This document shows positions 7,171 to 39,804 of a DNA stretch of 64,000 nt, one piece after another. The stretch's first letter is position 1, and every line of letters begins with the position of its first letter. Source of the DNA: Candidatus Poriferihabitaceae bacterium (GTDB lineage: Bacteria > Pseudomonadota > Gammaproteobacteria > Arenicellales > Poriferihabitantaceae). The DNA lies in NCBI GenBank assembly GCA_965204165.1, contig OZ241969.1, forward strand, positions 4,280,735 to 4,344,734, read 5' to 3'. Under the pieces are notes generated by a model. It worked only from the letters and a program-made list of their open reading frames with translations, made no database searches and had not been told where the DNA came from. Both the position numbers and the translations under genes were made by a program.

Positions 7171-7252
7171 GCATCAGCCTGACACCCGCCCCCGGGATTC
7201 CGGTGGAATCCGCACCCGCCCCGGCCAGGACAGCACCGGCCCTTTCCGCCCC

Positions 7253-8762: not shown

Positions 8763-8967
8763 TGGATTGCCCTCCGGATTGTTAAACGAATCGTGTGCGC
8801 GTCTTGAGATCGGGCGCCGCCGCAGCGCGCTGTGTGCGAACGGCCCCGCCATCCCGCCCGCGGCGGGATTGCCCCGGGACGCCGCAGGCACAATTCCTGT
8901 CTCGCGACCGGGCCGGAGCGAAGCGCCGGTGAATGCCTGGCGGCCCATCGCGTGATTTCCGGTCCGG

Positions 8968-19683: not shown

Positions 19684-19712
19684 GCGATCCGCCTCGCCAT
19701 CCCCTCCCCTTC

Positions 19713-19745
19713 AGCCGCAGTCCCCAGGGGCTGCGGCTTTTTTCT
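19713..19745 (+). terminator. intrinsic terminator after ssb
   Basis: GCCGCAGTCCCCAGGGGCTGCGGC followed by TTTTTT. Confidence 0.6.
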
Positions 19746-19889
19746 TGCAGCCAACCCAACGGCCGGCTTCGCCGCGCCTGCTCGCATGATCATCGAGTGA
19801 AGGTCAGGGGGGCGGGTGGTGAACCGCGCGGCGGCCGGAGAGAGGGCCTTCGCGCGTCACGTCAACCAGCACACCGACCGGAGAGAACC

Positions 19890-20123
19890 ATGCCCCGAAT
19901 CACCTTCCAGAAAACCGGCGACGACGAAGCCATCATCCGTTACGACGGCGAGGCCGTCGGCGACCTGTACCGCCATGAGGATCCGATCACGGGGAAGCCG
20001 TTCTATCTGATACTTCTCAGCGAGGACGGCCGGGGTTGGCTGCGCTGCGATGATCGCAGCAAGGTCCACCAGTCCATCAGGCACCGGCTCCGCTCGCACC
20101 CGCTACAGGGGTGGCGATTCTGA
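19890..20123 (+). CDS. hypothetical protein (77 aa)
   Basis: Internal ATG preceded by GGAGAG. No family assignment possible. Confidence 0.4.
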   Translation: MPRITFQKTGDDEAIIRYDGEAVGDLYRHEDPITGKPFYLILLSEDGRGWLRCDDRSKVHQSIRHRLRSHPLQGWRF

Positions 20124-20641
20124 TGGCCATGGCCAGCACCGCCATGCCAGTCCCCTTCCCACCGCTTTCCCCATTCACCCACCGCCCGGTGGGCGTCCTG
20201 CCCACAATGAGCGCCTGCGGCGCGGCTTGTTGGTCGCTGGTGCTGTCCATGCACCCACGGCGTTTCACTCGGCTCTCCTCGTTGTACGCCTGACGCGACC
20301 CGATTGGGGGGACAGTACTACTCCCTGCCTATTCCCATGATATCCCCGTGCTCGTTTGCCAACCCCTCCGGGGTCCTCCACTGCGCTCCGCTCCGTTCCG
20401 GCCGCGCCTCCAGGGACAACGGCGCTGGCGCGCCTAGCGCCGGCGCGCCACGCGACCGTGGCTCATTCCTCCCTGCGGTCGTCACTGCGCCCGCACCATC
20501 GCGCGGCACGCCGACCCATGTCCCTGGGGCCCGGTGGCGGCTCTGCGCGCGGCGATGAGGGATGAATACGCAGGAAGTTCCCTTCCAGCTCATGCGGGGC
20601 TTCCGCCCCTTCAACTTCTATTGTTCATTCGGAGAATTCAC

Positions 20642-21592
20642 ATGTACGACAACAGCAACTCCATCGACAACATCGATCACCTCGACAGCATCGATACCGG
20701 CGGACAATCCGTCACCGCCATGATCTGCGAGCAGGCGAAGCTCCACGGGGCGACGCCCGAGCGCGGCGAGTTCGATCCCAGGGAGGTCTGGGAGCGGGAC
20801 ACCGCCATCGGCGCCGTGGCCGAGGCGTTCTCGGTACTCGCCGACTCCATCGGCATGACCGGGTTCCAGATCGCCGACGAGGCCGGCTCCCTCCTCTGGG
20901 GGTTCGTCAACACCTTCGACGCGCAGATCCGGAGGCTGGACCGGAGCATCGACCGGATCGCGCCCGAGCTGCGCGACCTGCGGAAGGAACAGGACGGTTC
21001 GGAAATAAAATCGCGGGAGCTGGAACTGCTCACGGACCGGGCGAAGAACCTGGGGGCTCGGCGCGACGCCTTCGAGGAGATGCGGGACGCGGCGGCGGCC
21101 CAGTACCAGGCGCAGACCGGCGAGATGTGGCGGCCGCGCTCCGGTTCCCACACCAGCCGCACCGGGGTTCTCACCTCCGCCGCCATCGACGCCCGGGACT
21201 TCCTCCGGGCGAGGGACAGCGCCGCCGTCAGGGAGAACCTCCCGGACGGAACCCTGATCGCCGTCGCGGGCGGGAAGGACGGCGACCCCGACGCGGTGTT
21301 CCGCAAGCTGGACGCCGCCCACCGCAAGTACGCGGACATGGTCCTCGTCCACGGCGGCGGGCCCGGCGTCGAGAAGTTCGCCGCCCGCTGGGCCGAGGCC
21401 CGCGGCGTGCACCAGGTGGTCTGCCGGCCCGACTGGAACACACACGGCAAGGCCGCGCCGTTCCGGCGGAACGACGAACTGCTGAACCTGATGCCGAAGG
21501 GCATCATCCTCTTCCCGAGCGAATCCGGCATCACCGCCAACCTGGCCGACAAGGCGACCGCCTCGGGCATACCGGTTCTGAGAGTCAACTGA
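20642..21592 (+). CDS. DUF2493 (SLOG-fold) domain protein with ~190-aa N-terminal helical extension
   Basis: The C-terminal DMVLVHGGGPGVEKFAARWAEARGVHQVVCRPDW...FRRNDELL is the DUF2493 core common on plasmids and ICEs. ATG preceded by GGAGAA. Confidence 0.7.
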   Translation: MYDNSNSIDNIDHLDSIDTGGQSVTAMICEQAKLHGATPERGEFDPREVWERDTAIGAVAEAFSVLADSIGMTGFQIADEAGSLLWGFVNTFDAQIRRLDRSIDRIAPELRDLRKEQDGSEIKSRELELLTDRAKNLGARRDAFEEMRDAAAAQYQAQTGEMWRPRSGSHTSRTGVLTSAAIDARDFLRARDSAAVRENLPDGTLIAVAGGKDGDPDAVFRKLDAAHRKYADMVLVHGGGPGVEKFAARWAEARGVHQVVCRPDWNTHGKAAPFRRNDELLNLMPKGIILFPSESGITANLADKATASGIPVLRVN

Positions 21593-22766
21593 GACACCGG
21601 CACCGGGCCGCGTCGTTCCCACGGCGCGGTCCTTCTTCCCTTCCGGCGCGGCGGCCGTGCCGCGCCATCGCCGCTGCGCGGCGCCCGGCGCTTTTTCCAT
21701 TCCCCGTCCGCGGCGGCGGCGGCAACCGCATCCGCTTCGACGCCTGCTGCTGGCTCGATGCTCCGCATCCTCGCCGGGCACGCGGACCGGACCGCCTACC
21801 GTCGCCGACGCCCTCCGCTTCGCGGGCCGGTCGCGACGATTTTTCCGATCTCCAGCTTCCACAGCGAACCGGTCCGTGCTCCGCGACGGTCCCGGTGGCG
21901 AACCCGTGCCGGGTCTCCGCCGTCGGCTTTCGCCGCACGGCGCTGCCGACTCCAGCTCCGTCTCTCTCCCGTTCCGGTCGCGACAGTTTTTTCGTCGGCA
22001 TCCTCATCCCCCGCTCCGAACGTGCCGGTCTCCGTCACGCGCGCCGCGTCCGGCATCTCCACCTGTTCCACAACGAGCCGAAAAAAAATTCACGGTGATG
22101 GTCGCAGTAGTCAACCGGTTCCCCGTCCGCAGCGTCAGCCGCTCCGGACTCCGCCACCGGCGCAAGTTTCTTCTCGTGCCTCTGCCCGTTGGCGCGTCGG
22201 TCGCGCTTCCCCTTCGGGAACTCCATCGGGTCGCGTGCCGCTCCCCATCGCGGGTCGCTTCCGCTGCCCCGCTCAAACGCCGCCGGGCTCCATCCTTTCG
22301 CTCTGCCGGAGTCCAGAATCGTTCGTGGTGTGCTCCTCGATCTTCTCTCATTTCTACGCCCGGCGGCGTTTTCTCTCACACCCCACGCACCTATGGTGCA
22401 GTGTGCTTCATGCGTACGATTGCCCGGCCCTGTCCCAGCCTGCCATGACATCGACCGCCCCCATGTTGTTGGGGCGAGTGTATGTTCTTGCTACCGGCGC
22501 GGTATACCCCCGGAACCCTTTGTTTTCAAACGTCATTTCCAAATTTCGTATTTCAGCGTAACACGGTGCCGATATAGTAAATTTGCTAAATTCCATGATG
22601 AGCATACAGCTCGTATGCCATGAGAACACGCTCGGGATTGTTACAATCGGCTATTCGGAAGCGGTTCCCACCCTACGGCGAAAACACCTAAGATGGTTTC
22701 CATCCGGATTCATGAAGTAAATTTCGAAGACCGTCCACCCAATCAGTGAGCCGAAGCAGGAATAAC

Positions 22767-23180
22767 ATGGCAGAAAAAATTCAAACCGAATCCGCAAAAA
22801 CCGTATCCGGCGAATCCAATGATGGAAATGCCGACGTGAATACGTCCGAACGGCGCTTGCCACGCTCCATCCGTTTTTCCGATTCCGAATGGAAACTGAT
22901 CGAGAGAACGGCCAAGGAGCGTGGTATGGCAGCCGCCGAACTGGTTCGACATGCCGCAGTTGGCTTTGCGAAAGGAAAATTTTCCGCATCCACTTCCAGG
23001 AGTTTGCCTACATCCCATCCCGAGATTGCAGCACAGATCGAACGAATCTATAACGGCGTCTACCTACTCACAACATTAAAGCGGGATGAAATGCTCGCGA
23101 GAGGGCAAGAGGAGGAAGTGGAAAGAATCATTGAAGACGCCCGAAAGTCACGCAAACTGATACAGGAATCCTCTGTCTGA
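22767..23180 (+). CDS. ribbon-helix-helix (CopG/MobC-like) DNA-binding protein
   Basis: RSIRFSDSEWKLIERTAKERGMAAAELVRHAAV shows a beta-strand plus two-helix RHH pattern. The C-terminal half is helical. First gene of the AT-rich block. Confidence 0.6.
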   Translation: MAEKIQTESAKTVSGESNDGNADVNTSERRLPRSIRFSDSEWKLIERTAKERGMAAAELVRHAAVGFAKGKFSASTSRSLPTSHPEIAAQIERIYNGVYLLTTLKRDEMLARGQEEEVERIIEDARKSRKLIQESSV

Positions 23181-23417
23181 TCGAATATCAATTATCACCA
23201 ACTTTGAAGTCTCCTGGTCCTTACTTAACCGATCCTTTCGAAAAGTATCAGAATAAAATTTCACTTTCCGTGCCGGATTCCTGATGAAAGAAAACGGATC
23301 TCGTTTTGATTACAGTGCCCATCGATATTCAGCCAGCACCAAATTTTGCCACCTTAGGGAATTCAGGGTGGATTGAATATTTAGTGAAGAAAAATATAAC
23401 CGCATCAGATTGGAGAT

Positions 23418-25462
23418 TTGAAATTGGCAGCTGACGATTTTCGCGTCGATTTCCGAGGTGCACGCGGATCAAACACCGGAGACGAATTCCACGAACTGTG
23501 GGCGATTCGACATGCTCTTTCCATGTTGGATCCACATAGTAGCCTATCCTCCATCATGCTGGAAGGTGTTAAATCGGGCAATGAAGATGGGAATTTCTGG
23601 GACGGCGTGGATTGTACATTGCTGTACTGTGGAGATTCTTTGGCCGAAGCAAAACACGTAGAAATTCAACAACTAAAGTATTCAGCCGCAAATCCAACGA
23701 AGAAATGGACAGTTGCTCGGGCCTGTGCCGGTAGAGGGGGTACAGGTTCAGCTTCGTTGATTCATAGACTAGGTCAAGCGTTTCACGCCCTGCGTCAAAT
23801 ACGCAAAGACAAAAAACTTGAGTCAATCAAGGTAAAACTCGTGACCAACCAACCGATTTCTCCAGAATTGTTGCGGGTCATTTTCGAAGCCAGGGAAGAT
23901 GTGCCTGAAACATACGCGGTGCCTTGGAAAACCGGTGATTCTAAATTGCACCGTCTCGTCTCCGCCAGTGGTCTTTCTCCTAGTGAATTTCGGTCCTTCG
24001 CATTTGTTTTCGATTGTGTAACAAGTGCTAATGTGGGTTCCCGTTTTTCGATGGAAGATGGAATTCTCACCACTATAGCTACGTTTCAAGATGTAGAGTT
24101 TCAGACAACATTTCTCCAACTCAGGAATTTTGTTCGCAAGCGTATGCTACCGGAAGCTGCAGGAGAACAAATTACGAAACAGAATATTCTTATTCAGTTT
24201 GGAGTATCTGATGAGAGCGCATTGTTTCCGTGCCCACCGGCGATGAAACCAGTATCCGGTTTAGTATCCAGAGATGAATCAGAGAGAATCGTAGAAACCA
24301 TGAAGCAAGGAACGCAAAGGATTTGCTTCCATGGTGGTGCCGGAGTGGGAAAGACTACAGCATTGCAAGAGATCAATTCATCATTGCCGGCAAATTCTCA
24401 CATGATCGTTTTTGATTGCTATGGAGCAGGATCATATTTGGATGCCAGCAAATTACGCCACCGGCCAAGAGATGCTTTTACCCAGCTATCCAACGAATTG
24501 GCCGAACGATTACGGATACCTCTCTTTCTTCAACGGAGTGAATCCATAGATTATGCAAGAGCTTTCTGTCGAAGACTGGAAATAGCTGCAGAAACTCTTA
24601 AGTTAGTCTCCCCAGATGCCTTTCTGGTTATTGCCGTGGATGCAGCGGACAACTCAATCTCAGCAGCAAATGCATTCTATGGAAATGATACTTGTTTTGT
24701 TCCTGAACTCATGTCATTTCATCAGCTGCCAGAAAATGTACGAATTATAGTAAGTGCAAGAACAGGGCGACTCGATGAGTTGAGCCCCCCATCTGCATAT
24801 GTACGTATCGAACTATCTGGCTTTACGAAAGATGAAACAACACAAAATGTCAACAGATTTTGGAATGCTCCAGCAAATTGGATAGACGTCTTTCATGAAT
24901 TATCCAATGGTATTCCTCGCGTTCAAGATTACGCATTTGAATGGGCGAGAGAAAAATACGAAAAAGCAATGGATGTATTGCTACCTGAAGGAAAGGATCT
25001 TGATCAGATATTCGATGAAAGTTTTGCGTTCGCACTGAAGAAATCTGGTAACTCTGACCTTGTTCAAAATGTTTGTGCCGCTTTAATCGTGTTGCCAAGG
25101 CCGATTCCAATAACCGAATTGGCATATTTACTTCAGCTGCCAGTTTCGCAGGTTTTAGACATCTGTGCTGATTTGGCACCAGGAATACGCATGCAGGGGA
25201 ATAATATTAGTTTCTCAGATGAAGATTTTGAAGATTTTGTTAGAAGAAAGGGAATAGATGAAGAACAAAACCTTCAAGTGCTAGCGGCAGAACGATGCCT
25301 TTCGCAAGCCGAATGCAATACATACGCCGCCAGAAATGTCGCACATCTCTTGTTTGTTTCGGGAAGACATCAAGAACTACTGGAGTTTGTGGAAAAGGAG
25401 CCGGAGCCAAACTCTGAGGCTGTTCCTGATCCTGTTCAAAGACGTGAGATCAACGATGAAAG
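23418..25462 (+). pseudogene. giant nuclease-like / P-loop NTPase gene, 5' part (codons 1-681 plus 2 nt), interrupted by the IS66-family element
   Basis: TTG start after GGAG. Walker A GGAGVGKTT at nt 24333-24359, Walker B FLVIAVDAADN at nt 24621-24653, and N-terminal GDEFHELW...VDCTLLY...VEIQQLKYS. The reading frame terminates 4 nt inside the IS. Confidence 0.8.
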
Positions 25463-25495
25463 GTAACTACTAGCCCCCTGTGGAGCACCTGAAGG

Positions 25496-26953
25496 TCATT
25501 CAGGTGTCTTGAGCATGTGGGCGGCCTTTCCCTTGAGAGCGATCTCGATGGCGGCAAGAGGATTGTAACCCTGATAGGACATGGACAGCAGATAGCTTGA
25601 GACCCGGCACCATGCGACGGCGTATTTGTATGTACGGAAACAGCCGGACACTTTCTGCTTGACCTTGGCCATCCGGAGGTTCCTTTCGGACAGGTTGTTG
25701 GTGAAGCTGACCGCGGGGTCCCTGGCGAACCGCAGGACTTCGGTTTCATGCTTTCCCATGGCCTCCCACAGGTTCTCCGCGTCGGATTTCGCGATGCGCC
25801 CGCGCTTTTTCCCGCCGGTGCGCACAGGGGTTGCCGGGAGTTCCTTCTTCCCCTGGGTCAGGATGGTCCGGTAGCGCTTTTGCAGGGCGGCGCATTCTTT
25901 TGCGGACAGCACCTTGTCCGGGCTTTCCCTGACCTTGCGGGCGGCGTCCCGGAGCAGTTTCTTCATCCGCCTCGCCCAGGCCGGATCATGGGCGTCGATG
26001 AGGAACTGCAGATCCCGCAGGAGGTGGCCGCCGCACAGGGCGTGGTCGCAGTGGTCACAGGCAAGATAGCTGGCCCAGCGGTCATGGACCAGGACGCCGC
26101 CGTACCGGGGGATGATGCCGATGTCCCGGATCGCCTCGCCGCCCCGCTTGGGGTGGCAGAACTTCAGGGTGAGGTCTCCGGCGCTGCAGTCGTGCAGCCA
26201 GTGGTTCTTGCGGTCGATGCGGATCGAGGTCTCGTCCACATGCAGCGCCGGCGCGGCCAGCAGGCACTCGACGGCGGCAGCCTCCCAGTCCGCCAGGGCA
26301 TCGTGCAGGCGCAGCAGCCAGGCCAGCAGGGTCGCCTCGGCAATGGCCCGTCCCGTCATCGCCTTCATGGTCTGGACCACACGCTTCAGCGGCACCATCT
26401 GCGCCACCATCAGGTGGGCGGCGAACGCGATGATGCCGTGTCCGTACTGCAGCGGACCCGGCAGGCCGTCCGGAAAGGCGCCCCGGTTCTCGGCATGGCA
26501 GCGCGGACAGGTCTTGATCTCGGCATCCACGTGGTATTCCCGGGTCTCGAACACGATGTCCACCAGGGTGCGACGCTCATGGCCCTCGCACCGTACCCGC
26601 ACCAGGTTCCTGCCGCAGGCCGAACATTCCGTCACCGGGGATACCCCGGTTTCACTCACCAGACGGGTATGGCCCGTTTCCCAGTGCGGCTGCTCCGGTC
26701 CCCTGCCACGGCTCCCGGGGCGTGCCGCGGTCTCATCCTTCCCCTCACGGGACGGCGGCAGGCTCGCGTTCACCGGCGTCTTGCGGGTGGTCTTTTCCAT
26801 GAACACCGCCATCATCAACTCCATCAGCATCAACAGGGCGTTGAACAGCACCTCGCATTCCGCGCTGACCTTGCCCTCCCTGCACAGTGACCGGAAACTC
26901 TCCCGGTGCGCATCGAACTCCTCGCGCAGCGCAACCCGGTTCACCGTCCCCAT
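25496..26953 (-). CDS. IS66-family transposase (TnpC-type), 485 aa
   Basis: Zinc-finger CSACG...CPRCH, then DDE-region motifs ALHVDETSI, VLVHDRWASY and NNLSERNLR. Length and layout are typical of IS66 TnpC. Confidence 0.9.
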   Translation of the reverse strand: MGTVNRVALREEFDAHRESFRSLCREGKVSAECEVLFNALLMLMELMMAVFMEKTTRKTPVNASLPPSREGKDETAARPGSRGRGPEQPHWETGHTRLVSETGVSPVTECSACGRNLVRVRCEGHERRTLVDIVFETREYHVDAEIKTCPRCHAENRGAFPDGLPGPLQYGHGIIAFAAHLMVAQMVPLKRVVQTMKAMTGRAIAEATLLAWLLRLHDALADWEAAAVECLLAAPALHVDETSIRIDRKNHWLHDCSAGDLTLKFCHPKRGGEAIRDIGIIPRYGGVLVHDRWASYLACDHCDHALCGGHLLRDLQFLIDAHDPAWARRMKKLLRDAARKVRESPDKVLSAKECAALQKRYRTILTQGKKELPATPVRTGGKKRGRIAKSDAENLWEAMGKHETEVLRFARDPAVSFTNNLSERNLRMAKVKQKVSGCFRTYKYAVAWCRVSSYLLSMSYQGYNPLAAIEIALKGKAAHMLKTPE

Positions 26954-26957
26954 GGAT

Positions 26958-27647
26958 TCACTCCTCCCTCGCCTCCACGGCCTCCTCCGCCTCCACCGCC
27001 ATCATCGCCGACAGCACCGCCAGGCGTTCCCCATGCGGCATCCCCCGGTAGCGCCGGCCCCAACTCTGGGCCTTGCGCTTCACCGCCTGGCGATGGGTGA
27101 AGTTCCGGCCCGCATAACGCGGCCAGTGAACCCGGTCCGGCGTGAAGTTGAACCACACCTTCTCCGTCACCACACCCGCCTGGTTCATCACCTGAAGCGA
27201 CACGCTGCCCCAATCCCCCAGCCAGTCGTCGTACATCCGCGAAGGATACCCCGAGATCATCACCGAGCAGGGAAGGCCGCGGATCAGCGCCAGCAAGCCC
27301 TCGTGGTCGCTGTTCCTGTAGTCGTGCCGGTAGCGGCGGCCCGACTTGCGCGTACTTTGCAGATACGGCGGGTCGCAGTAGACCAGTTCCGTGCCGTCAA
27401 ACGGAAACGTCCGGAGATACCGGTGACAGCAGCCATGCACCAGTTCCACCGGATAGTCGCACTGGAATCCTTCCAGCGCCCTGGCGTTGCAGTCTATGCC
27501 GATGTTCCGCAGGGCCCCCGGCTTGCGCTTCATGATCGCCCCACCGCCAAGGTGGGTTTCGATATACACCGAGTGCGGCGGCATCAGGGCGATCAGAGGC
27601 TGGCACAGCCCCGAAGCTCCCTTGGAGCCGAAATAGCGGTTCCCCAT
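26958..27647 (-). CDS. compact Dam-like N6-adenine DNA methyltransferase (identical to 1138..1827)
   Basis: Same 229-aa translation as copy 1, with the DPPY and FxGxG-type motifs. Confidence 0.75.
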   Translation of the reverse strand: MGNRYFGSKGASGLCQPLIALMPPHSVYIETHLGGGAIMKRKPGALRNIGIDCNARALEGFQCDYPVELVHGCCHRYLRTFPFDGTELVYCDPPYLQSTRKSGRRYRHDYRNSDHEGLLALIRGLPCSVMISGYPSRMYDDWLGDWGSVSLQVMNQAGVVTEKVWFNFTPDRVHWPRYAGRNFTHRQAVKRKAQSWGRRYRGMPHGERLAVLSAMMAVEAEEAVEAREE

Positions 27648-27763
27648 CTGTGTGCGGGTTCGTCTCGTGGTCCGAAACCCGAACGATAGGGAAAATATTC
27701 TATACTGTCAACCTACAGATGGGGATAATGGGGCAAATAAGGGGTGAGTAGTTACGATGAAAG

Positions 27764-30700
27764 ATTGTTAATAGCGATTCGGGTATGTCGAAAAGCAGAG
27801 AATACTGCGCGTGCTTTACGCTTCGTACTTATTGGCGCGGAAGCACGCCGTACCAGTGAATCGACTCGATCACTGTTGGCATCATACCCAAAACTAACGG
27901 CCAGGTACGCAAAGGAGACAGCAAGTCGTCTTATATTAAGTGATCCAAAAGAAATAGAACATCATGGCCCTCTTATTTTTCATTCTATCGCTGAGGATGC
28001 CAGAAAAGGAGATAAGGTCGGATATAGAGTGGGATGGCGGCTTCTTCAAGCGTGGTGGGTAGCGCGTAGGGATGTTTATAAGTCAGAATTTGAAAAACAT
28101 GGATATGAAGATCCTTGGCCAATAAAGCTTGACGACTTTGCATCGATTGTCTACGGGTCTGCGGTATTAATGGGTCCAGATGCCGCGATTACGGAACTCA
28201 AGAGATTTCGGCAAATGAAATTTGCCATTAATGTAGGTAAGAAATTCGTAACCAGATTACTTACCGAAGGTCGCTTTGAATTAGCTGAAGAAATTGCAAT
28301 GAGGTTCCATCCGTGGAAGGCAGTTTTTCTTCTGGTGCCTCTTGCCCTTGCTGGTCGGAACATTGACTTGCATCGATTAGGAAGAGGGCTATCTGCATTA
28401 AAGAGACGATTTCGGTTAGATATCGAATTAGCAAATTATGATGATGAATACAGAACAGGAGAATATGTTCTAGATACAGTTCTTACTGCATCTGAAATCC
28501 TAATTGGAAATGGCGTTTGTACAGATGTCGGAAAAAATATTCTTTCGTCGTTCACTGACCCCAGTTTGCGTAATTTAGAACAGCGACATGAATTCGAGAT
28601 TTCGTTGATTGATGCAATTTTTAGGTCATACTCATTAACTGAGTTGATGCTGGACAAGGACATAACATCGTCAGATATATTTCAATTTGAACCACAATCA
28701 AGTGGAATCGAAAACTATACAGACAGACATAGTATCCATCATGACAGAGATTTCGGTGAATTTATAAATACGATTTCTCCCTTTTATATCCTTCGGGCGA
28801 AAACCATTCTTTCAGCTCAGTGTAATAAGAGTTTCGATCTATGTATTGATGAATTCAAGAAAGGATTTGACACTGATTTCTGGCGTTTGAGCCACAGACG
28901 TCGGGGCAAGGAATACCGTGCAGTACTGTGTGACCGTTTGACAACCCTTATTGCCTTTGGGGCCAGTTCTCAGGAGATTTATTCGTACGCAATAATGTAT
29001 CTCGAGAAGGGAGAATATCCTACCAATAATTTCTATGAACGATTCGCTGTTTTTCGTGAACTTCATAGCAATATAGTTGATAGTATTCTTTCCACTGCAA
29101 ATGCCACCATTTCTGAGCGATGTGGATCCGAAGAAAAAGCTCATAATCTTTCCGAGTTAGCTGAATTGTTGACGTCGTTCAGTCCAAGGGATGCTGATGC
29201 GTTATTCCAAGAAGCCATAATTATTGCAAGTCAACTTGACAAAGAATCAATAGATCAAATTCGACTTTTTCACAGTTTGATTGGCCATTGCAAAACTGTA
29301 ATTCCTAAAGAAAAACATCGTTTCTATGCATCCAGGCTATCTGAAATAATTTTTGATGCGGGTATACGTCTAAAAGATTTGGAGGACTTTCCATGGTGCA
29401 ATGCGATGGAATCCATTTCTCTACTGGACATTCCTACAGCACTGGCAAGTACCGCAAGATGGAATGATTTTAATCTGCAGGGTATAGACACAATTTTACC
29501 TCCTGTCATTTCAGAGGGGTTAAGGACAAATGATCTAGACAGTACACAAGCTTCGGCACTGTTGTGCTTGCTTCGTTATGCACGTTTGGAAACTTTAGAG
29601 GGAATATTTAAGAAAGCTCTGGATGAAGGTAAATCAGTAGCTTCCAACTTGGCAGAGGAATTCGCACAAGACTGTCTCGTTGGACGTATCAGATTTTTTG
29701 AGGATTTCGCTTCCCTCATATCCAAGCATGGTACTGGAGAATGGATAAATAAATTAGACAAGCAAAATGAATTCATTGTCCGAATTTCACAGGATGAAGA
29801 AGAATCCAGTAACACGACCGAAGTAACTCTGAAAAATTCTGAAATCATTGAAAAGCATGTTTGGGAACATGCAACCTTGACTGACAGCGATCGTTTGTTG
29901 GCTGAAGCTGAACACCTAATTTCGAAGTCCAGGTCTGAAGGAGAACACATATCATTGCGAGATGTGTTTTTCTACGCATCACAGAAAGTGCCTGTTGGGA
30001 ATCTGTGTGAGTATCTTGATGCACTTGTTGGAATATTAGAAAAAAATCGTGATTATCAAATACTGGACGCTATTTTGGGATCTGCTCAATGCTGGAAATC
30101 AAAATGGTCCGTTCAGAATTGGAGTAAAAATAATATTCCGAAGTTGATTTCTGATTTCTTGCCGCTATTCACGCGGCACATTCCTTGGGAAGACAGACTC
30201 AACCCAGCAATTGAATTGGCTCAGATGGATGGAGAAAAAACGCAAATTTCATTGTTAAAAGGTATTGAGTCTTCCGCATTGGAATTGAGCGTACTTGAAA
30301 TACTCACTATTGCAAATCTCATTTCAATAAATTCTGATCCTGGAGAATCCGCTAATTTATTTGAATGGTATCTTGAAAGACTTTTCAATCGTATCCCTGA
30401 AAACGAACGTGAGGATGTCGATGATGTTGATATACCAGTCGACGTTACTAGTTCTGTTGCAAGATTTCTTTATGCACATCTCAGCGATGTCGATTTGCGT
30501 ACTAGATGGCGTGCAGCACATGCAATGCGGAGATTAGCTCGACTTGGTGATAGCAATACACTAACTGAAATAGTTAATCAGTATGAACGTATCGAAGAAA
30601 AAGGATTCAGAGCTGTAGGGACACCATTTTATTGGCTTGCTGCACGGCTTTGGTTGATGATCTCCCTGGACAGAATTTCACATGAAACGCCTGAATTATC

Positions 30701-32144
30701 GAAACCTTTTATCGAAAAGTTACTAAATATAGCTCTTTCTGATGATTTTCCTCACATGCTGATACGTGCTTATGCAACTGACGCATGTTTGAAACTCAGT
30801 GAAAATGGATACGTGCAACTTGACTCAACAAACATTGGCGCACTACAAAGAATTAATTCACCATCGAATATTGATAAATCAAGTCGTGTGGGTCGTACTG
30901 AATCTTTTGAGTCGTGCGGAATTAGCGATGATTCACGGAGGTTTGAATTTGATTGGATGGATACGCTTAGATATTGGTATGAGCCATGGCTAAATATTTT
31001 TCCGGAATTGACTACAAGGAGATTTCTTGAATTATCAGAAGCATGGATAGTTGATCGTTGGGGGATTACAGAACAATCGAAACGAACCAGGTATGATCCA
31101 CGTTCTTGGAGATTCCAAGACAGTACATATGGTTCCTGGAGCAATAGCCATGGGAGCCTTCCCACACTTGAACGATTCCAGAATCACCTAGAGTGGCATT
31201 CCATGTGGTGTACTGCTGGAGAATTGGCCAAGTCATATTCAGTCAGAAAAGAGGAATACGAAGAAGTCGATGAACTGGCCATGAAAATAGCCCAGGGAAA
31301 ATTATCGATTGATTCATTATGGCTCAGTGATCTGATTGGAGCAGTTCCTTTACAGCAGCATCGCTGGATTCCAGAAGCAGATGAATTAAGCTCATGGATG
31401 AATACAATCACTGACGATGCTTTTTTTCGCGAACTATTTCCCGAGGATCGATGGGATTGGATCGTGGCTAATGCTGAATTGAATTCTGTATATCGCGACC
31501 GAGAAGAAAGAGTTCAGATAAACACAGGGCTTGTTTCCCCAGAGACAGCTCATGCGCTTGTCCGCGCATTGCAAACCACAAAAAGTCAATACCTCTATTT
31601 TATCCCGCCGGAAAATTCTGAGTCAGAAATTAATGAGGCTGATTATAGTCTCTCTGGATGGTTGTCTAACATTGACGGTGACACTCGATTTGATAGTAAA
31701 GATCCTTATTGCCACAACATCAATCTCCCTAGAGGCTTACCTGGGGAGGGAATTGTCAGCTGCTTGGATCTGCAACAACGGACATCCCTTCCATCAATTA
31801 ATTGGTTTCGTGAAGATTCGGAAATGCCATCTGTAATATATGAAACATGGGGGGATTCGGATAGAAATGGTACCTATCAATATCGCCCAAAAAATGCAGT
31901 TGAATACTTTGGGTACAGGACACTCATCAGAAAAGATGAGATGGTTAAATTCATGCGGATTAAAGAAGAAGATTTGATTGTTCAAGTTGGAGTAACACGA
32001 TATGACAAACCGAGAGAAGAACCGAGATATGATACGGAAGGTAGAAATAGGGCTATCTTCGACAGAGTGTTTGTCCTCAGACGAGAAGGAGATATCGAAT
32101 CTGCCGAGCGAAGTTTTGAAGCTTGGTTCCAGAATCGTCAATGA
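27764..32144 (+). pseudogene. giant nuclease-like / NTPase gene, 3' part (completes codon 682, runs to codon ~2141)
   Basis: After removing the IS and one TSD copy, the frame continues ...EINDE-RLLIAIRVCRKAEN... The ~1,460 aa are helical-repeat-like, with one HEAT-like stretch RWRAAHAMRRLARLGD and no catalytic motif recognised. Confidence 0.8.
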
Positions 32145-32775
32145 ACTCAATATCCACCAGAATTCCGATACTCTCAGCCGATGGATGGCACATCATTTAG
32201 CTGAAGTCATCAAGGAAGCAGAAACAGCAGAAGGAACTGAACGAGAATCTCTACAGGAAAAAGCCGTTCGTTTAATTTTAGAATTATGGAGTAACAGGAA
32301 AAACCTTCCAGGAAATGCCTACCCACTAAACCACCTGAAAGATATTATTTCCATACTCATACTATTGAGAAAGAGTTCATCACCATTTTCTGAACACGGC
32401 CATGGAAAAATTGAAAAATTATTATTCAGTATATTTTCTTCTCTTCAGGTGATCGTAATTCATGGTATTGTTCTTACAGCTAAAGCTGGAGAATTACCCG
32501 AAGATATCGATTCGGAAAAGAATTTCCTTGATGCGGACGAAAAGCGTGTTCTAAATGCAGTGAAAGAATGGGAGAATTTTATTGATGATAGACATCCAAT
32601 GCCGCAAGTACTTATTCAGACTGAGCAAAGCACTTCAGATTTTGGCCAGATTCAGTCCAATATTGCTAAATTGGAAGCAATGGATCCAGTAGAACGATCA
32701 AAATTTGTCTTGCATGCGGAGATAGAGGGAATAATGAAAACCCTTACGGAGTTGAAAGAGATTCTGGAAGATTGA
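32002..32775 (+). CDS. hypothetical helical protein (257 aa); start uncertain; may be a frameshifted continuation of the giant gene
   Basis: ATG preceded by GGAG at 9-nt spacing. It overlaps the upstream ORF by 143 nt in the +1 frame. AT-rich codon usage matches the giant gene. Confidence 0.45.
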   Translation: MTNREKNRDMIRKVEIGLSSTECLSSDEKEISNLPSEVLKLGSRIVNELNIHQNSDTLSRWMAHHLAEVIKEAETAEGTERESLQEKAVRLILELWSNRKNLPGNAYPLNHLKDIISILILLRKSSSPFSEHGHGKIEKLLFSIFSSLQVIVIHGIVLTAKAGELPEDIDSEKNFLDADEKRVLNAVKEWENFIDDRHPMPQVLIQTEQSTSDFGQIQSNIAKLEAMDPVERSKFVLHAEIEGIMKTLTELKEILED

Positions 32776-33062
32776 TTTTCAAAGCGGTTTACTACAGCCC
32801 AATGATGCCTGAAGTATTCCGATGGTCAATTTCGATAATATCGAGACATTCTTTACCACATCACCTCGCAAGGGATGGTGAGGAATTTGGGATCGAAACT
32901 GGTATCAGCTACAACGCCAGGCCGGAGAACTTTTCCACCATAACTGCGAAGAAGTCCCACATCAGGCTACAATGTGAGTCCCCGGACGCAGACAGGCTAC
33001 AGGTACGCAGAGTATGGTTCCATCCTAGAGACATGCCAACGCTCCTCCCGGCGTCGGATCAA

Positions 33063-36032
33063 TCACAAACCAAGTTCACGGTCCACAACCTTGGGCCTGC
33101 GGGGCGGTTCCATCCCCGATTCCCGGCCCTGATCCCTCGACCTGGACGTCCTTTCGCCGCCCTTTTCCGGTACCGACTTCCCCGTTATCTCCGAATCTTT
33201 CGTGATGCCTTCCAACGCGGAGAGCCGTTCCCCGGTGGCCGCTTCCAGTTGCTCCTTCAGTCCCGCCCTGTCGTCCGTGACCAGTTCCGCCCGATCCCTG
33301 GCACGGCTGATCTCCACATAGAATGACTTCTGGGTCGTCAGGTTCGGATGCCCCGCCTCCATGGCGGCGATCACGTTGTCCACGGTCCTGCCCTGGAACG
33401 CGTGCACCGTCGATGCCCAAGCATGGTCCAGATGCCGCATCTGCGGATCGTTTTTTTCAAGTTCCAGTCTGCGGCCATCCTCCAGCTGGAAGGATACGCG
33501 GCCATTGCCGACTTTCGTCACTTCCGCGGTGCGACTGTTGAACAGTCCCAGCCCGCGGTCGTTGCGGGTCCAGCGGATTCGGTCACCGGCCCGAAGCTCG
33601 ATCCCCTCGGCCTTGTAGACCTCGGCCCCGCCGGTTTTCCCGCCGATTTTCTCGGGTTCCCACCCCACAATCTGCCCTGCGTTCCCGTTCGGGCCCTCCA
33701 ACATTACCTTGCCAGTCTTGCCGTCCACGCCCAGGACCTGGCGTTCGTCGCCCTTCTCGATGCCGATCCGCCTGTACGTCCGGTGAAATGCCACCACATC
33801 CCCCGGCGCATAGTTGGCGGGGAGGGCCTTCTCGGCGTTGGTGAATCCCTGCGACACCAGCCGCTGGCCCTGGAAGGCGGGGCCGTGGATCCGGCCCTCG
33901 CGCTCCAGGCGCTCCCGTATATGGCCGTTGATGTCCTTTCTCAGTTCATGGCTCGGCGCCATCACCCCGGTTCTTTCGCGCTTCTCCGGGGTCAGGCGGA
34001 GCCAACGGGCGGCGACCGCCCCGGCGATGTTGTCCGCCTTCACCTCGGCGATATTGGCCCCGAGCTTCCCGAACGCCTTTTCCACGTTCCCGGCCAGACT
34101 CGCCTCGACGGCGGCCTTCAGGTCCGGATCCCGCTGGCGCAGGATCTCGTCCATCACCGCCGTCTTCATGCCTCCCTCCTGAAGCTGGGCGAAGGGCTTG
34201 CCCGCGTCCACGGCTTCGAGCTGCTTGCTGTCCCCCACCAGTACCACCCGGGGAATCCGCAATGCCTTCGCGATCCGAAGGAGGTTCCGGGCCTGTACGG
34301 TGGAAGCGAGGGACCCCTCGTCCACTACCAGCACGGTCCTTTTGAACATGTCACGGAGTTCCCGTTCGCCTTTCCTCGTCAATCTTCCCTCGGCCACGCC
34401 TTCATTGCGTGCGAGAAACATCTGCAGGGTCTCTGATTCGATCCCCGCCTCCATAGATAACGTGCCCGCCGCCGAGGCCGAGGGGGCGAGGCCCGCCATG
34501 CGGTAGCCCTGCTGCTCCGCCAGCGCCCGGGCTCGGTTCAGCATCGTGGTCTTGCCGGTGCCGGCGTATCCCTGCACTCCCACCACCCGGTCCCTGGCGG
34601 ACAGGATCAGCTTCACGGCCTCCTTCTGACCCTCTGTAAGCGGCCCCTTGTGGAGGCGGGCGCTCACCGCCCAGCTCCGCATCACCGGACGGCCACGGCC
34701 CTGGCCCTCGCGCATGAGGCCGATGGTCTCGCGCTCGTCCGCCAGCGCCCGGTCGGTGGTCAGGCCGTCCCCCGTGTGGAAAGCGGGGGCGACGTACAGG
34801 CCGTTCTCCTTCCTCAGGCCCTCCACCGCCCGCTCCGCCGCCTCCACGGACACCATCCCGGGCTTCCAGGAAAGCGCGGCGGCCAGAAGCTCCGTCCGGC
34901 TGAACACCGCTTCCCGTTCCCCCAGATGCGCCACCGCCCATTTTATTGCCTCAGTAGCGAGGTCCTTCGATTCGCTTGCCGGTATGGGAATATCCGCCAT
35001 CGACGGCTCCACGACCCTGCCGGTCTTCCCGGCTTTCTCGGGTGCCGCATCCGAAGCGGAAAAATCCTTGTCGGATTCCCCGTAAGCCACACCTGAAGCA
35101 TGAATTGAACCGGCGGTGAGTGCATTGGCATCGAAGCCCATGGTCTTCGCCTGTTCCCGCCAGTGCGCCCGGAGCGCATCCTTGTCCACGTCCCGTTTCG
35201 ACGCCCGCGTCATCAGCGCCGCCCGCTCGGCCAGGCGCTGGTTGCCGGCGGTGCCGCCCCCGTCCGCCGTCCTCTCCGCCACCGCGGCCTCGATCTCCGC
35301 CCTCCGGGTGGAGAACACTTCAATTACCCTGCGGGATATCCCCGCGATCTCGAACCTTCCGTCCGCATGGGTTTTCTCGATCCCGTAACCGAGCTTCATC
35401 AGGCTCCTGGCGAGTTCGCTCCGGTAGATCATGCCGACCAGTTTCTGGTTGCGGTACAGCCCCTCGTTGGCCATGGTCCGCCATTTCCCGTCTTCTCCCC
35501 GCACCATGTTGGCGAGGACGGCATGGGTGTGCAGCTGGGGATCGAGATTGCGTGACGTGTCGTGCAGGAAGGTGGCAACCACCGTCTTCTGATTTCCCGC
35601 GCGGACCAGCCGACCGGTCGCGGGGTCCCGCAGACGGGTTTCCGCGGCGTTTTTCTCGACCCAGGCCAGCGACTTCGCAACCGCCTGCCGATGTGCTTCC
35701 ACAACGCGCTTTTCATCTCCCCCCACCAGTGCGGCCAGGGAAACGGACTTGGGGGCGGAGAAGGTCAGGTCCCGGCCCGGGCGGTGAATGACATTCCCTT
35801 CCCTGTCCATCCGGCCGAGCCGCTGCCCGCTGCCGTCCGGCACCTCGCCCCGGAGGACCGCCTTGAACATCTCCGGGTCCACATGGCCCTCGAGGCCGAG
35901 TTCGGCCGCACCCCGCCCCGCCCAGGCGCTCATCCGAAGGTGTTCGGGATCGTCCTTCGCGTAATACCCGTCCCGTTCGTAGTAGGAGGCGCCCTGGGCG
36001 GCCGAAGCCACGGAGCCGACCGACACTACCAC
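33063..36032 (-). CDS. traI: MOBF-type conjugative relaxase/helicase (TrwC/TraI-like)
   Basis: Relaxase motifs: N-terminal AASYYE..DGYYAKDD, LTFSAPKSVS and HDTSRNLDPQLHTHAVLANM (3-His). The helicase part has GYAGTGKTT and VLVVDEGS. Confidence 0.9.
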   Translation of the reverse strand: MVVSVGSVASAAQGASYYERDGYYAKDDPEHLRMSAWAGRGAAELGLEGHVDPEMFKAVLRGEVPDGSGQRLGRMDREGNVIHRPGRDLTFSAPKSVSLAALVGGDEKRVVEAHRQAVAKSLAWVEKNAAETRLRDPATGRLVRAGNQKTVVATFLHDTSRNLDPQLHTHAVLANMVRGEDGKWRTMANEGLYRNQKLVGMIYRSELARSLMKLGYGIEKTHADGRFEIAGISRRVIEVFSTRRAEIEAAVAERTADGGGTAGNQRLAERAALMTRASKRDVDKDALRAHWREQAKTMGFDANALTAGSIHASGVAYGESDKDFSASDAAPEKAGKTGRVVEPSMADIPIPASESKDLATEAIKWAVAHLGEREAVFSRTELLAAALSWKPGMVSVEAAERAVEGLRKENGLYVAPAFHTGDGLTTDRALADERETIGLMREGQGRGRPVMRSWAVSARLHKGPLTEGQKEAVKLILSARDRVVGVQGYAGTGKTTMLNRARALAEQQGYRMAGLAPSASAAGTLSMEAGIESETLQMFLARNEGVAEGRLTRKGERELRDMFKRTVLVVDEGSLASTVQARNLLRIAKALRIPRVVLVGDSKQLEAVDAGKPFAQLQEGGMKTAVMDEILRQRDPDLKAAVEASLAGNVEKAFGKLGANIAEVKADNIAGAVAARWLRLTPEKRERTGVMAPSHELRKDINGHIRERLEREGRIHGPAFQGQRLVSQGFTNAEKALPANYAPGDVVAFHRTYRRIGIEKGDERQVLGVDGKTGKVMLEGPNGNAGQIVGWEPEKIGGKTGGAEVYKAEGIELRAGDRIRWTRNDRGLGLFNSRTAEVTKVGNGRVSFQLEDGRRLELEKNDPQMRHLDHAWASTVHAFQGRTVDNVIAAMEAGHPNLTTQKSFYVEISRARDRAELVTDDRAGLKEQLEAATGERLSALEGITKDSEITGKSVPEKGGERTSRSRDQGRESGMEPPRRPKVVDRELGL

Positions 36033-39546: not shown

Positions 39547-39804
39547 CCGCCCACATCCAGCCTCGAGTGATTTGTTTGCTCCTGTGATTTTCCTGTTAAC
39601 TGGTTAAAACCACGGGATTCCTGCCCACCTTGTTTACTTCCCGCCATCAAACTACAGGTAGGCAGCATACAAACCAAGTCCCGATCGGGGCAGGCTTTGA
39701 TATTCGTCAATAAATAGACAATCCAGAAAGTTACGCCTGATGATGGCTCCGGTAGGCAAAGTAATTACTTGAAACGCTAAATCGGCAACCTGATCAAAGC
39801 TCAT

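What the first reader, a model, noticed from the sequence alone, without database searches (positions are those of the whole stretch)
22767..32775. IS-split ~2,141-codon nuclease-like / STAND-type NTPase gene on AT-rich cargo: candidate uncharacterised single-protein defence (Avs/NLR-like) system
Deleting the IS66-family element (25463-27755) and one copy of its 8-bp target duplication joins ORF 23418..25466 in frame to ORF 27744..32144 (...EINDE|RLLIAIRV...). This restores a single 6,426-nt gene of ~2,141 aa. Several features are read directly from the translation. Residues ~20-90 have restriction-endonuclease-like spacing (GDEFHELW, D65 in VDCTLLY, E82-I-Q-Q85-L-K87), reminiscent of Cap4/DUF4297-type PD-(D/E)xK domains. 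Residues 306-314 are a Walker A loop (GGAGVGKTT). Residues 402-412 are a Walker B strand (FLVIAVDAADN), followed by IIVSARTGR. The remaining ~1,600 aa look helical-repeat-like, and I can name only one HEAT-like stretch in them. An effector, a STAND/AAA-type NTPase and a giant repeat sensor is the layout of antiviral STAND (Avs/NLR-like) proteins. However, the size and C-terminal region match nothing I recognise. The gene sits in a sharply AT-richer block wedged between conjugative-element genes. It is preceded by an RHH regulator-like gene and followed by an overlapping 257-aa ORF. It is currently knocked out by the IS.
Basis: partly seen in the sequence, partly recalled or inferred. Interest (0 to 1): 0.85.

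Follow-up and report, generated by a model that had tools for sequence, protein, structure and literature searches.

The report
IS-disrupted Avs3 anti-phage gene pair
The giant split gene is a divergent copy of Avs3, an already characterised bacterial immune sensor that detects the phage terminase and then shreds DNA; it sits with its usual small partner gene avs3b on a conjugative element and has been knocked out by a jumping gene, so it is an ordinary member of a known family.

Summary
A 2,293-bp IS66-family element (25463-27755) has 15-nt terminal inverted repeats and a perfect 8-bp duplication (GATGAAAG). Removing it restores one 2,141-codon ORF (23418..32144).

The claim that it is "uncharacterised" does not hold.
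- The repaired protein aligns end to end with PADLOC Avs3a (E 6e-201, profile positions 8-2088 of 2090).
- It aligns end to end with the cryo-EM-solved SeAvs3 (PDB 8DGC, E 1.8e-121, residues 7-2080 of 2092).
- The overlapping 257-aa ORF is Avs3b.
- Conserved residues are the Cap4-like nuclease motif D65...Q85-x-K87, Walker A K312 and Walker B D408. The equivalents of SeAvs3 Y1714 and H1770, which contact terminase-bound ATP, are Y1752 and H1811.
- An AlphaFold model of residues 1-682 (pLDDT 85) has 8DGC as its best structural match (E 2e-34).

Identity to canonical Avs3a is only about 23-25%. The scores fall below NCBI's equivalog cut-offs, which explains why homologues are labelled "hypothetical".

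The RHH gene is not a conserved partner. The block lies between SSB/SLOG genes and TrwC/T4CP genes.

Verdict: a new, inactivated member of a known kind; low interest. The function of Avs3b is still unknown.

The parts
22500..33000 (.). AT-rich cargo block. It is 42% GC without the IS, against 64-68% GC in the flanks. It carries avs3a and avs3b.
   Evidence: Composition profiles
23418..25462 (+). avs3a 5' part, codons 1-682 (the last codon is completed at 27764). It holds the Cap4-like nuclease (about residues 20-290) and the STAND NTPase with its helical and winged-helix modules (about residues 290-680). As it stands, the ORF ends ...INDER* at 25466, inside the IS end.
   Evidence: NCBIfam Avs3a, residues 16-678 against profile 2-652, E 3.1e-94. 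AF2 model pLDDT 84.9, with 8DGC chains A/B as top fold hits at E 2.4e-34 and 1.4e-33.
23610..23678 (+). Nuclease catalytic motif: D65 (23610-23612), Q85 (23670-23672), K87 (23676-23678).
   Evidence: D65 and Q85 are invariant and K87 at least 90% conserved in 32 sequences. They align to D/Q/K of K. variicola Avs3a and of SeAvs3.
24333..24650 (+). NTPase motifs: Walker A GGAGVGKTT (K312 at 24351-24353) and Walker B FLVIAVDAADN (D408 at 24639-24641, D411 at 24648-24650).
   Evidence: K312, D408 and D411 are invariant. Weak NACHT, AAA_16 and NB-ARC Pfam hits. STAND fold neighbours CED-4, Apaf-1, MalT and Avs4.
25455..25462 (.). Left copy of the 8-bp target-site duplication GATGAAAG.
25463..27755 (-). 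IS66-family insertion sequence, 2,293 bp, with 15-nt imperfect terminal inverted repeats that start GTAAC.
   Evidence: A second, partial copy that is 100% identical lies at 1030-2552.
25496..26953 (-). IS66 DDE transposase, 485 aa.
   Evidence: PF03050 at 1.2e-40. NF033517 at 4.8e-71, 239.9 bits against a cut-off of 180.
26958..27647 (-). 229-aa ORF inside the IS. It resembles the C-terminal third of a type II (Dam-like) adenine methyltransferase, and its GC3 of 0.84 equals that of the transposase.
   Evidence: PADLOC MTase_II at 3.5e-16, residues 87-169 against profile 202-286 of 295. TIGR00571 at 5.9e-5. Composition.
27756..27763 (.). Right copy of the 8-bp target-site duplication GATGAAAG.
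27764..32144 (+). avs3a 3' part, codons 682-2141 plus the stop. This is the Avs3-type helical-repeat and C-terminal sensor region.
   Evidence: NCBIfam Avs3a profile 772-2081 of 2083, E 3.2e-112. The last 747 aa against SeAvs3 1391-2080, E 3e-48.
30972..31151 (+). Y1752 (30972-30974) and H1811 (31149-31151). These are the equivalents of SeAvs3 Y1714 and H1770, which contact the ATP bound to the terminase.
   Evidence: phmmer alignment to the 8DGC sequence. MAFFT columns. The role of these residues is taken from bioRxiv 10.64898/2026.08.25.746987.
32002..32775 (+). avs3b, a 257-aa ORF. Its first 143 nt overlap the 3' end of avs3a in another frame.
   Evidence: PADLOC Avs3b at 1.4e-23. NCBIfam NF041817 at 1.5e-24. 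29% identity to RefSeq-annotated Avs3b, E 6e-19. Present downstream of avs3a in all 8 independent homologous loci. The overlap is conserved.
22746..23180 (+). Neighbouring 144-aa ORF with a weak RHH signature. It is not part of the Avs3 system.
   Evidence: NikA-like 1.6e-5 and RelB 2.7e-3, both below cut-offs. No homologue lies next to any Avs3a relative.
33063..38410 (-). Flanking conjugation genes: TrwC-type relaxase/helicase (33063-36032) and the type IV coupling protein (36026-38410).
   Evidence: PF08751 at 7e-85 and PF10412 at 1.4e-138.
19234..21592 (+). Flanking genes on the left side, of kinds I recall as typical of transfer regions: SSB (19234-19683) and a YspA/SLOG-domain protein (20534-21592).
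   Evidence: PF00436 at 4.6e-22 and PF10686 at 1.7e-21.

Best explanation
The locus is an AVAST type III (Avs3) anti-phage system, avs3a plus avs3b. It is carried as AT-rich cargo next to the relaxase and coupling-protein genes of a conjugative element, and an IS66-family insertion at codon 682 has inactivated it.

How the intact gene would work (inferred by homology to SeAvs3):
1. The C-terminal helical-repeat/CTD sensor (about residues 690-2141) clasps the large terminase subunit of an infecting tailed phage. It reads invariant features, including the ATP bound to the terminase (window Y1752 and H1811).
2. The central STAND NTPase (Walker A K312, Walker B D408) then drives tetramerisation.
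3. The N-terminal Cap4-like PD-(D/E)xK domains (D65, Q85, K87) are brought together and cut double-stranded DNA indiscriminately.
4. This kills or arrests the cell before the phage matures (abortive infection).

In this genome the IS separates the nuclease and NTPase from the sensor. The first ORF stops at ...INDER*, so the system is expected to be dead. No other lesion is present, which points to a recent single-hit knock-out.

Shown here: the repair, the end-to-end homology, the conserved catalytic and ligand-contact residues, the fold of residues 1-682, and the conserved avs3b partner.

Inferred: terminase sensing, nuclease activity, abortive infection and loss of function.
For: Homology of the repaired protein:
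- PADLOC Avs3a at E 6e-201, residues 16-2127 against profile 8-2088 of 2090.
- phmmer to SeAvs3 (PDB 8DGC) at E 1.8e-121, residues 15-2128 against 7-2080 of 2092, as one collinear stretch.
- The sensor alone matches at 3e-48.
- NCBIfam NF041816 Avs3a hits both halves collinearly.
- tblastn to RefSeq-annotated avs3a/avs3b on K. variicola pKPN692_2 gives 99% coverage at 24.5% identity.

Conserved residues and fold:
- D65, Q85, K312, D408 and D411 are invariant, and K87 is nearly invariant, across 32 family members.
- Y1752 and H1811 align with SeAvs3 Y1714 and H1770. H1770 is reported as indispensable for Avs3 immunity.
- The AF2 model of residues 1-682 has pLDDT 84.9, and its top fold hits are 8DGC chains A and B.

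Partner gene and IS:
- Avs3b is matched by PADLOC, NCBIfam and BLASTP, and lies downstream in 8 of 8 independent loci with a conserved frame overlap.
- IS hallmarks are present.

Mechanism as published: SeAvs3 tetramerises on terminase binding and degrades dsDNA (PMC13601566; PMC11564622).
Against: - Identity to the characterised protein is only about 23-25%.
- NCBIfam bit scores (316 + 376 for Avs3a, 87 for Avs3b) are far below the equivalog cut-offs of 2800 and 200.
- The profile hits to Avs3b cover only its first 82-91 profile positions, and BLASTP covers residues 16-185.
- The closest full-length relative, P0001 (56% identity), has Q at the H1811 position, so that contact is not invariant in this clade.
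- Nothing about specificity or activity was tested, and the primary Avs3 papers could not be read.
Confidence: 0.87

Rival explanations
1. It is an Avs3-fold protein with a different or broader trigger. This roughly 2,140-aa proteobacterial clade keeps the Avs3 scaffold and nuclease, but senses a phage protein other than, or in addition to, the large terminase.
For: Identity to SeAvs3 is only about 23%. Avs2 homologues are reported to recognise several unrelated phage proteins (PMC11564622, abstract). P0001 lacks the H1770-equivalent histidine. The avs3a 3' end shows 7 synonymous against 17 non-synonymous differences from a 95%-identical relative, with omega about 0.65. That pattern could reflect diversifying selection on the sensor.
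Against: The sensor is collinear with SeAvs3 residues 1391-2080 (E 3e-48), and both reported ATP-contact residues are kept in the window protein. The high omega is equally well explained by decay after the IS hit, and it does not differ from neutrality (p 0.32).
Confidence: 0.08
2. One reading: a previously undescribed, single-protein Avs/NLR-like defence system with a novel sensor.
For: Pfam alone gives only sub-threshold NACHT and AAA hits and nothing for the last 1,600 aa. RefSeq labels homologues 'hypothetical protein'.
Against: End-to-end matches to the PADLOC Avs3a model, the SeAvs3 sequence and the NCBIfam Avs3a model. The partner gene is Avs3b.
Confidence: 0.02
3. The split locus is still active. 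The 682-aa nuclease-NTPase fragment, with or without a separately translated sensor fragment starting at GTG 27744 or avs3b, might act as a toxin or as a two-piece sensor.
For: Both fragments keep open frames with no further lesions. avs3b appears to be under purifying selection, with 14 synonymous against 8 non-synonymous differences and omega about 0.16.
Against: Nearly all of the 120 listed homologues are single polypeptides of about 2,140 aa. No promoter or ribosome-binding evidence supports expression of the 3' fragment, and the promoter scan is at chance level. In published Avs3 work, activation needs sensor-bound terminase to drive oligomerisation. The avs3a 3' end looks relaxed.
Confidence: 0.03

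Closest known systems
SeAvs3 (Salmonella enterica Avs3; PDB 8DGC, bound to the phage PhiV-1 terminase)
   Same: Same length class (2,141 against 2,092 aa) and a collinear alignment over 7-2080 of 2092 residues. Shared features are the Cap4-like nuclease with the D...QxK motif, the STAND Walker A and B motifs, and the sensor including the Y1714 and H1770 equivalents. It is also the best structural match for the model of residues 1-682.
   Different: Identity is only about 23-27%. The host has a high-GC genome, and the gene sits on a conjugative element. The gene is interrupted by an IS. Specificity and activity are untested.
avs3a/avs3b of Klebsiella variicola plasmid pKPN692_2 (NZ_CP089387.1), annotated by RefSeq
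   Same: The same two-gene operon, in which avs3b (257 aa in both) starts inside the 3' end of avs3a. The overlap is 107 nt there and 143 nt here.
   Different: Avs3a is 24.5% identical by tblastn and 23% by global alignment. Avs3b is 29% identical over residues 16-185, and its C-terminal third does not align.
The roughly 2,140-aa proteobacterial Avs3a-like clade (P0001-P0120; for example Acidovorax, Stenotrophomonas indicatrix, Neptunicoccus, Caballeronia, and a Rhizobium plasmid)
   Same: 36-56% identity over 99-100% of the length. The downstream avs3b is the same, and the genes lie near integrases, transposases and other mobile-element genes.
   Different: Those copies are intact. None is closer than 56% identity, apart from a 2.9-kb metagenome fragment that is 95% identical in DNA but does not reach the IS site.
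Avs1, Avs2, Avs4 and Avs7 (other antiviral STAND families)
   Same: The same three-part logic of effector, STAND NTPase and sensor. Avs1 and Avs2 also sense the terminase, and Avs7 also uses a Cap4 nuclease.
   Different: The sensors are not homologous end to end. Avs4 (8DGF) is only a distant fold hit through the NTPase, at E about 1e-6. No PADLOC hit to other Avs models passed the threshold.
Cap4 / DUF4297 nucleases of CBASS
   Same: The N-terminal domain has the same PD-(D/E)xK-type fold class. There is a weak PADLOC SAVED_PDDEXK hit over residues 19-150, E 0.0039.
   Different: There is no SAVED domain or cyclic-nucleotide sensing. Activation would come from STAND oligomerisation, not from a second messenger.

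Membership tests
Avs3 / AVAST type III (Avs3a) | End-to-end collinear homology to the family profile and to the characterised SeAvs3 | tested here: met
   PADLOC PDLC02167 at 6e-201, profile 8-2088 of 2090. 8DGC sequence at 1.8e-121, residues 7-2080 of 2092.
Avs3 / AVAST type III (Avs3a) | N-terminal Cap4-like PD-(D/E)xK nuclease with an intact catalytic motif | tested here: met
   D65, Q85 and K87 align with D/Q/K of KvAvs3a and SeAvs3 and are invariant or nearly invariant in 32 sequences. The model of residues 1-682 matches 8DGC over 686-688 alignment columns.
Avs3 / AVAST type III (Avs3a) | Central STAND NTPase with Walker A and B motifs | tested here: met
   K312, D408 and D411 are invariant. 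Weak NACHT, AAA_16 and NB-ARC hits. Fold neighbours are CED-4, Apaf-1, MalT and Avs4.
Avs3 / AVAST type III (Avs3a) | Avs3-type C-terminal sensor, including the residues that contact terminase-bound ATP (SeAvs3 Y1714, H1770) | tested here: met
   The last 747 aa match SeAvs3 1391-2080 at 3e-48, with Y1752 and H1811 aligned. This is sequence-level evidence only.
Avs3 / AVAST type III (Avs3a) | Binds the phage large terminase, tetramerises, degrades dsDNA and protects against phage | not testable with these tools
   Needs co-expression, biochemistry or phage challenge.
Avs3 / AVAST type III (system) | An adjacent avs3b gene immediately downstream that overlaps the end of avs3a | tested here: met
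   PADLOC Avs3b at 1.4e-23 and NF041817 at 1.5e-24. BLASTP at 6e-19 to annotated Avs3b. The overlap is conserved in all loci examined.
NCBIfam equivalogs NF041816 (Avs3a) and NF041817 (Avs3b) | Score at or above the curated equivalog cut-off | tested here: not met
   316.5 + 376.1 bits against 2800, and 87.1 against 200. This is a divergent clade and the gene is also split. It explains the 'hypothetical protein' labels on homologues.
Functional Avs3 locus | An uninterrupted avs3a reading frame | tested here: not met
   The IS at 25463-27755 truncates the ORF at codon 682.
IS66 family insertion sequence | DDE_Tnp_IS66 transposase, 8-bp target duplication, and terminal inverted repeats beginning GTAA | tested here: met
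   PF03050 at 1.2e-40. NF033517 at 239.9 bits, above the cut-off of 180. Target duplication and inverted repeats. The GTAA and 8-bp rules are recalled from my own knowledge of ISfinder descriptions.
IS66 family insertion sequence (canonical three-gene type) | tnpA and tnpB accessory genes upstream of the transposase | tested here: not met
   The only other ORF in the IS is a 229-aa methyltransferase-like ORF. The organisation is therefore non-canonical.

The most novel reading that the evidence does not exclude
The most novel reading left open has two parts.

First, this roughly 2,140-aa clade is only about 23% identical to SeAvs3 and is invisible to NCBI's equivalog models. It might differ functionally from SeAvs3, for example in trigger range.

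Second, Avs3b might be an essential regulator or co-sensor. It is an all-helical protein with no detectable fold relative. Its reading frame starts inside the 3' end of avs3a in every locus examined, from 23% to 96% identity. My two Avs3 searches of the open full-text library returned no paper mentioning Avs3a or Avs3b by name.

The IS knock-out and a 95%-identical relative would then offer a natural comparison.
Probability: 0.12. Interest if true: 0.45.

Novelty: new member of a known kind. Interest (0 to 1): 0.17.

Why it matters
There is little here for discovery. The family, its trigger (the large terminase), its structure and its effector are published.

The practical value is for annotation. 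A whole proteobacterial clade of Avs3a/Avs3b pairs is labelled "hypothetical" in RefSeq because it scores below the equivalog cut-offs. IS-split copies like this one probably also escape defence-finder pipelines that work gene by gene.

The locus is also an example of a defence system carried next to the relaxase of a conjugative element and silenced by a recently active IS.

The one open biological question it touches is what the universally linked, frame-overlapping avs3b gene does.

Tried and rejected
- Megablast of window 12000-36900 against PLSDB plasmids gave no match, so the element and host were not identified.
- I spent the single genome-contig scan on homologue P0001 instead of the window protein. 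It returned only three loci (a Gammaproteobacteria MAG, Acidovorax and Paraliomyxa) and not the source genome.
- The primary Avs papers (Gao 2020 and Gao 2022) are not held under any identifier. The mechanism is therefore cited from later open papers.
- My two Avs3 literature searches returned no paper that mentions Avs3a or Avs3b.
- The Avs3b AlphaFold model is all-helical with pLDDT 69, and residues 1-32 are disordered. The Foldseek PDB search gave nothing below E 0.1, so no function can be proposed from the fold.
- RHH gene as a system component: rejected. There is no similarity to the upstream genes of homologous loci, and tblastn finds nothing in 10 loci.
- ORF 32772..33326 (184 aa): no family hits. 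In the 95%-identical contig it is split across two frames, so it is probably not a gene.
- The promoter and terminator scan of the block is at or below chance level.
- The ORFs I picked at 268-7895 and several at 14.8-18.8 kb gave no Pfam hits. In this high-GC DNA they are probably wrong-strand choices.
- The ORFs of the second AT-rich stretch (38.3-40.6 kb) have no Pfam or PADLOC hits.

Full report
**Observation**

The ORF table shows 23418..25466 (+, 682 aa, TTG start) and 27744..32144 (+, 1466 aa). They are separated by GC-rich DNA whose minus strand encodes a 485-aa ORF.

The junction sequences read ...ATCAACGATGAAAG|GTAACTACTAGCCCC... and ...GGGGTGAGTAGTTAC|GATGAAAGATTG.... The repeat finder reports both the duplicated target and the 15-nt inverted termini. 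The insert is therefore 25463..27755 (2,293 bp), with a perfect 8-bp target duplication, GATGAAAG.

Removing the insert and one duplicate gives a single 2,141-codon ORF reading ...REINDERLLIAIRV... with no other stop or frameshift. The 485-aa ORF is an IS66 transposase: PF03050 at 1.2e-40, and NF033517 at 239.9 bits against a cut-off of 180.

The block 22.5-33.0 kb is 42% GC without the IS. The flanks are 64-68% GC.

**What the gene is**

Pfam alone gives only sub-threshold NACHT, AAA_16 and NB-ARC hits around the P-loop. This is presumably why the gene looked novel. Other libraries identify it clearly.

- PADLOC matches its Avs3a model at E 6e-201, covering residues 16-2127 and profile positions 8-2088 of 2090. 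The 257-aa downstream ORF matches Avs3b at 1.4e-23.
- A phmmer search of PDB sequences finds exactly one protein, SeAvs3 (8DGC, 2,092 aa), at E 1.8e-121. It forms one collinear stretch, residues 15-2128 against 7-2080.
- The last 747 residues alone hit SeAvs3 1391-2080 at 3e-48. The "unrecognisable" C-terminal region is therefore the Avs3 sensor.
- NCBIfam's "AVAST type 3 anti-phage nuclease/ATPase Avs3a" model hits both halves collinearly (profile 2-652 and 772-2081). The bit scores are far below the narrow equivalog cut-off, 316 + 376 against 2800. Avs3b scores 87 against 200.
- tblastn against plasmids finds a RefSeq-annotated avs3a/avs3b pair on K. variicola pKPN692_2, covering 99% of the query at 24.5% identity. 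Global MAFFT identity is 23%.

**Family size and conserved residues**

The protein database holds 523 homologues at E<1e-10. The best is 56% identical, and nearly all those listed are 2,130-2,165 aa long. The few that carry names are called "hypothetical protein", "ATP-binding protein" or "NACHT domain".

In a 32-sequence alignment, D65, Q85, K312, D408 and D411 are invariant and K87 is nearly invariant. The nuclease motif is therefore D...QxK.

A 2026 preprint reports that SeAvs3 Y1714 matches the ATP1 recognition residue. It also reports that the H1770 loop is essential for binding the terminase-bound ATP and indispensable for immunity. In the direct phmmer alignment to the 8DGC sequence, these residues correspond to Y1752 and H1811 of the repaired protein (confirmed by MAFFT). 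The closest homologue, P0001, has Q at the histidine position, so the contact is not universal in this clade.

An AlphaFold2 model of residues 1-682, built on the homologue alignment, reaches pLDDT 84.9 and pTM 0.80. Foldseek against the PDB returns 8DGC chains A and B first (E 2.4e-34 and 1.4e-33, 26-27% identity over 686-688 alignment columns). CED-4, Apaf-1, a bacterial STAND-TPR protein, MalT and Avs4 follow.

**The partner gene**

The 257-aa ORF (32002..32775) has a homologue immediately downstream of avs3a in all eight independent loci I could inspect. These are three metagenome or genome contigs, three GTDB genomes, and the Klebsiella and Rhizobium plasmids.

In seven of these loci (the window plus L001-L006), I extended the avs3b frame upstream. 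In each it stays open for about 130-170 nt inside the 3' end of avs3a and carries an ATG or GTG near its 5' end. The two plasmid records annotate an overlap directly: 107 nt in the Klebsiella record (avs3a 2474-8752, avs3b 8646-9419) and 41 nt in the Rhizobium record.

The function of Avs3b could not be inferred. The model is all-helical (pLDDT 69, N-terminal 32 residues disordered), and no PDB fold match falls below E 0.1. My two Avs3 literature searches returned no paper that mentions Avs3a or Avs3b.

**Neighbours and context**

The upstream 144-aa ORF has only weak RHH hits. It has no counterpart beside any homologue, so it is not part of the system.

To the right lie a TrwC relaxase/helicase (7e-85) and a type IV coupling protein (1.4e-138). 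To the left lie SSB and a YspA/SLOG protein. From my own knowledge, such left-flank genes are common in transfer regions. The "cargo on a conjugative element" reading is therefore reasonable. Beyond 43 kb the genes look chromosomal: glyA, tgt and uvrD.

A 2.9-kb metagenome contig is 95% identical to window 31123-34004. It spans the 3' end of avs3a, avs3b and the 3' end of trwC, so this junction is shared with a related element.

Against that contig I counted synonymous and non-synonymous differences:
- The avs3a 3' segment has 7 synonymous and 17 non-synonymous differences. Omega is about 0.65 and does not differ from neutral expectation (p 0.32).
- avs3b has 14 and 8 (omega about 0.16).
- trwC has 56 and 30 (omega about 0.17).
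- Fisher tests of the avs3a counts against avs3b and against trwC give p 0.037 and p 0.002.

This is compatible with relaxed constraint after the knock-out, or with diversifying selection on a sensor. The counts are small, and it is unknown whether the relative is intact.

**Mechanism**

By homology with SeAvs3, the intact protein would proceed in these steps:
1. It binds the phage large terminase through its C-terminal sensor.
2. It tetramerises through the ATP-bound STAND module.
3. It activates the Cap4-like nuclease.
4. It degrades dsDNA non-specifically, which aborts the infection (PMC13601566; PMC11564622).

Here the IS sits at codon 682, at the boundary between the NTPase module and the sensor. 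The first ORF ends ...INDER*. The system is most likely non-functional.

A second, partial copy of the IS lies at 1030-2552 and is 100% identical. Together with the absence of any other lesion, this indicates recent IS activity.

**Comparison and verdict**

The locus works like, and by every sequence-level test belongs to, Avs3 / AVAST type III. It is a divergent branch of that family, at about 23-25% identity to the characterised protein. It fails only NCBI's narrow equivalog thresholds and the requirement for an intact frame.

Novelty: a new (and dead) member of a known kind. Interest is low. The residual interest lies in the unknown role of avs3b and in the annotation gap for this clade.

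Noticed in passing
window 1030-2552: A second, partial copy of the same IS in the opposite orientation. It is 100% identical to IS positions 771-2293 (window 26233-27755) and ends abruptly at 2552, inside the transposase gene. The IS has been recently active in this genome, or this copy was truncated by a later event.
   Followed up: partly
window 26958-27647 (minus strand, inside the IS): The IS66-family element has no tnpA/tnpB. Instead it carries a 229-aa ORF whose residues 87-169 match the C-terminal part of type II (Dam-like) adenine methyltransferases (PADLOC MTase_II at 3.5e-16, TIGR00571 at 5.9e-5). Its GC3 of 0.84 equals that of the transposase. It could be a passenger fragment or a novel accessory gene.
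   Followed up: partly
window 32002-32144; L001 7945-8075; L002 6394-6536; L003-L006; L007 8646-8752: The avs3b frame begins inside the 3' end of avs3a in every locus examined, across Avs3a identities of 23-96%. The overlap is 107-170 nt in eight of them and 41 nt as annotated in the Rhizobium plasmid (L008). This suggests translational coupling or a constraint on both frames.
   Followed up: partly
window 32002-32775: Avs3b is predicted to be all-helical (pLDDT 69) with a disordered N-terminal 32 residues. It has no fold relative in the PDB (best E 0.15). My two Avs3 searches of the open full-text library returned no paper naming Avs3a or Avs3b.
   Followed up: yes
L009/L010 (ENA ERZ23491266 scaffold_44246; Logan SRR16351687) against window 31123-34004: Metagenome contigs 95% identical to the avs3a 3' end, avs3b and the trwC 3' end. 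The avs3a part shows omega about 0.65 (7 synonymous, 17 non-synonymous), against about 0.16-0.17 for avs3b and trwC.
   Followed up: partly
Homologues P0047, P0054, P0081, P0111; L008 3980-11129: Intact members of this Avs3a/Avs3b clade in RefSeq genomes (Acidovorax, Stenotrophomonas indicatrix, Noviherbaspirillum, Caballeronia, and the Rhizobium sp. BT03 plasmid) are annotated 'hypothetical protein'. I attribute this to scores below the NCBIfam equivalog cut-offs, as seen for the window protein. It is an annotation gap, not a knowledge gap.
   Followed up: partly
window 38292-40584: A second AT-richer stretch (47-52% GC) lies just beyond the coupling-protein gene. Its three ORFs (170, 220 and 259 aa) have no Pfam or PADLOC hits. 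It may be further cargo.
   Followed up: partly
window 41568-42797; 48533-48619; 50490-50924: An SNase-domain ORF, a tRNA-Leu(CAA) gene and a PIN-domain ORF lie between the conjugation genes and clearly housekeeping genes (glyA, tgt, uvrD). The element's right boundary and attachment site might lie in this interval. No integrase was looked for.
   Followed up: no
window 32772-33326: The 184-aa ORF between avs3b and trwC has no family hits. In the 95%-identical contig it is split over two frames, so it is probably not a gene.
   Followed up: yes
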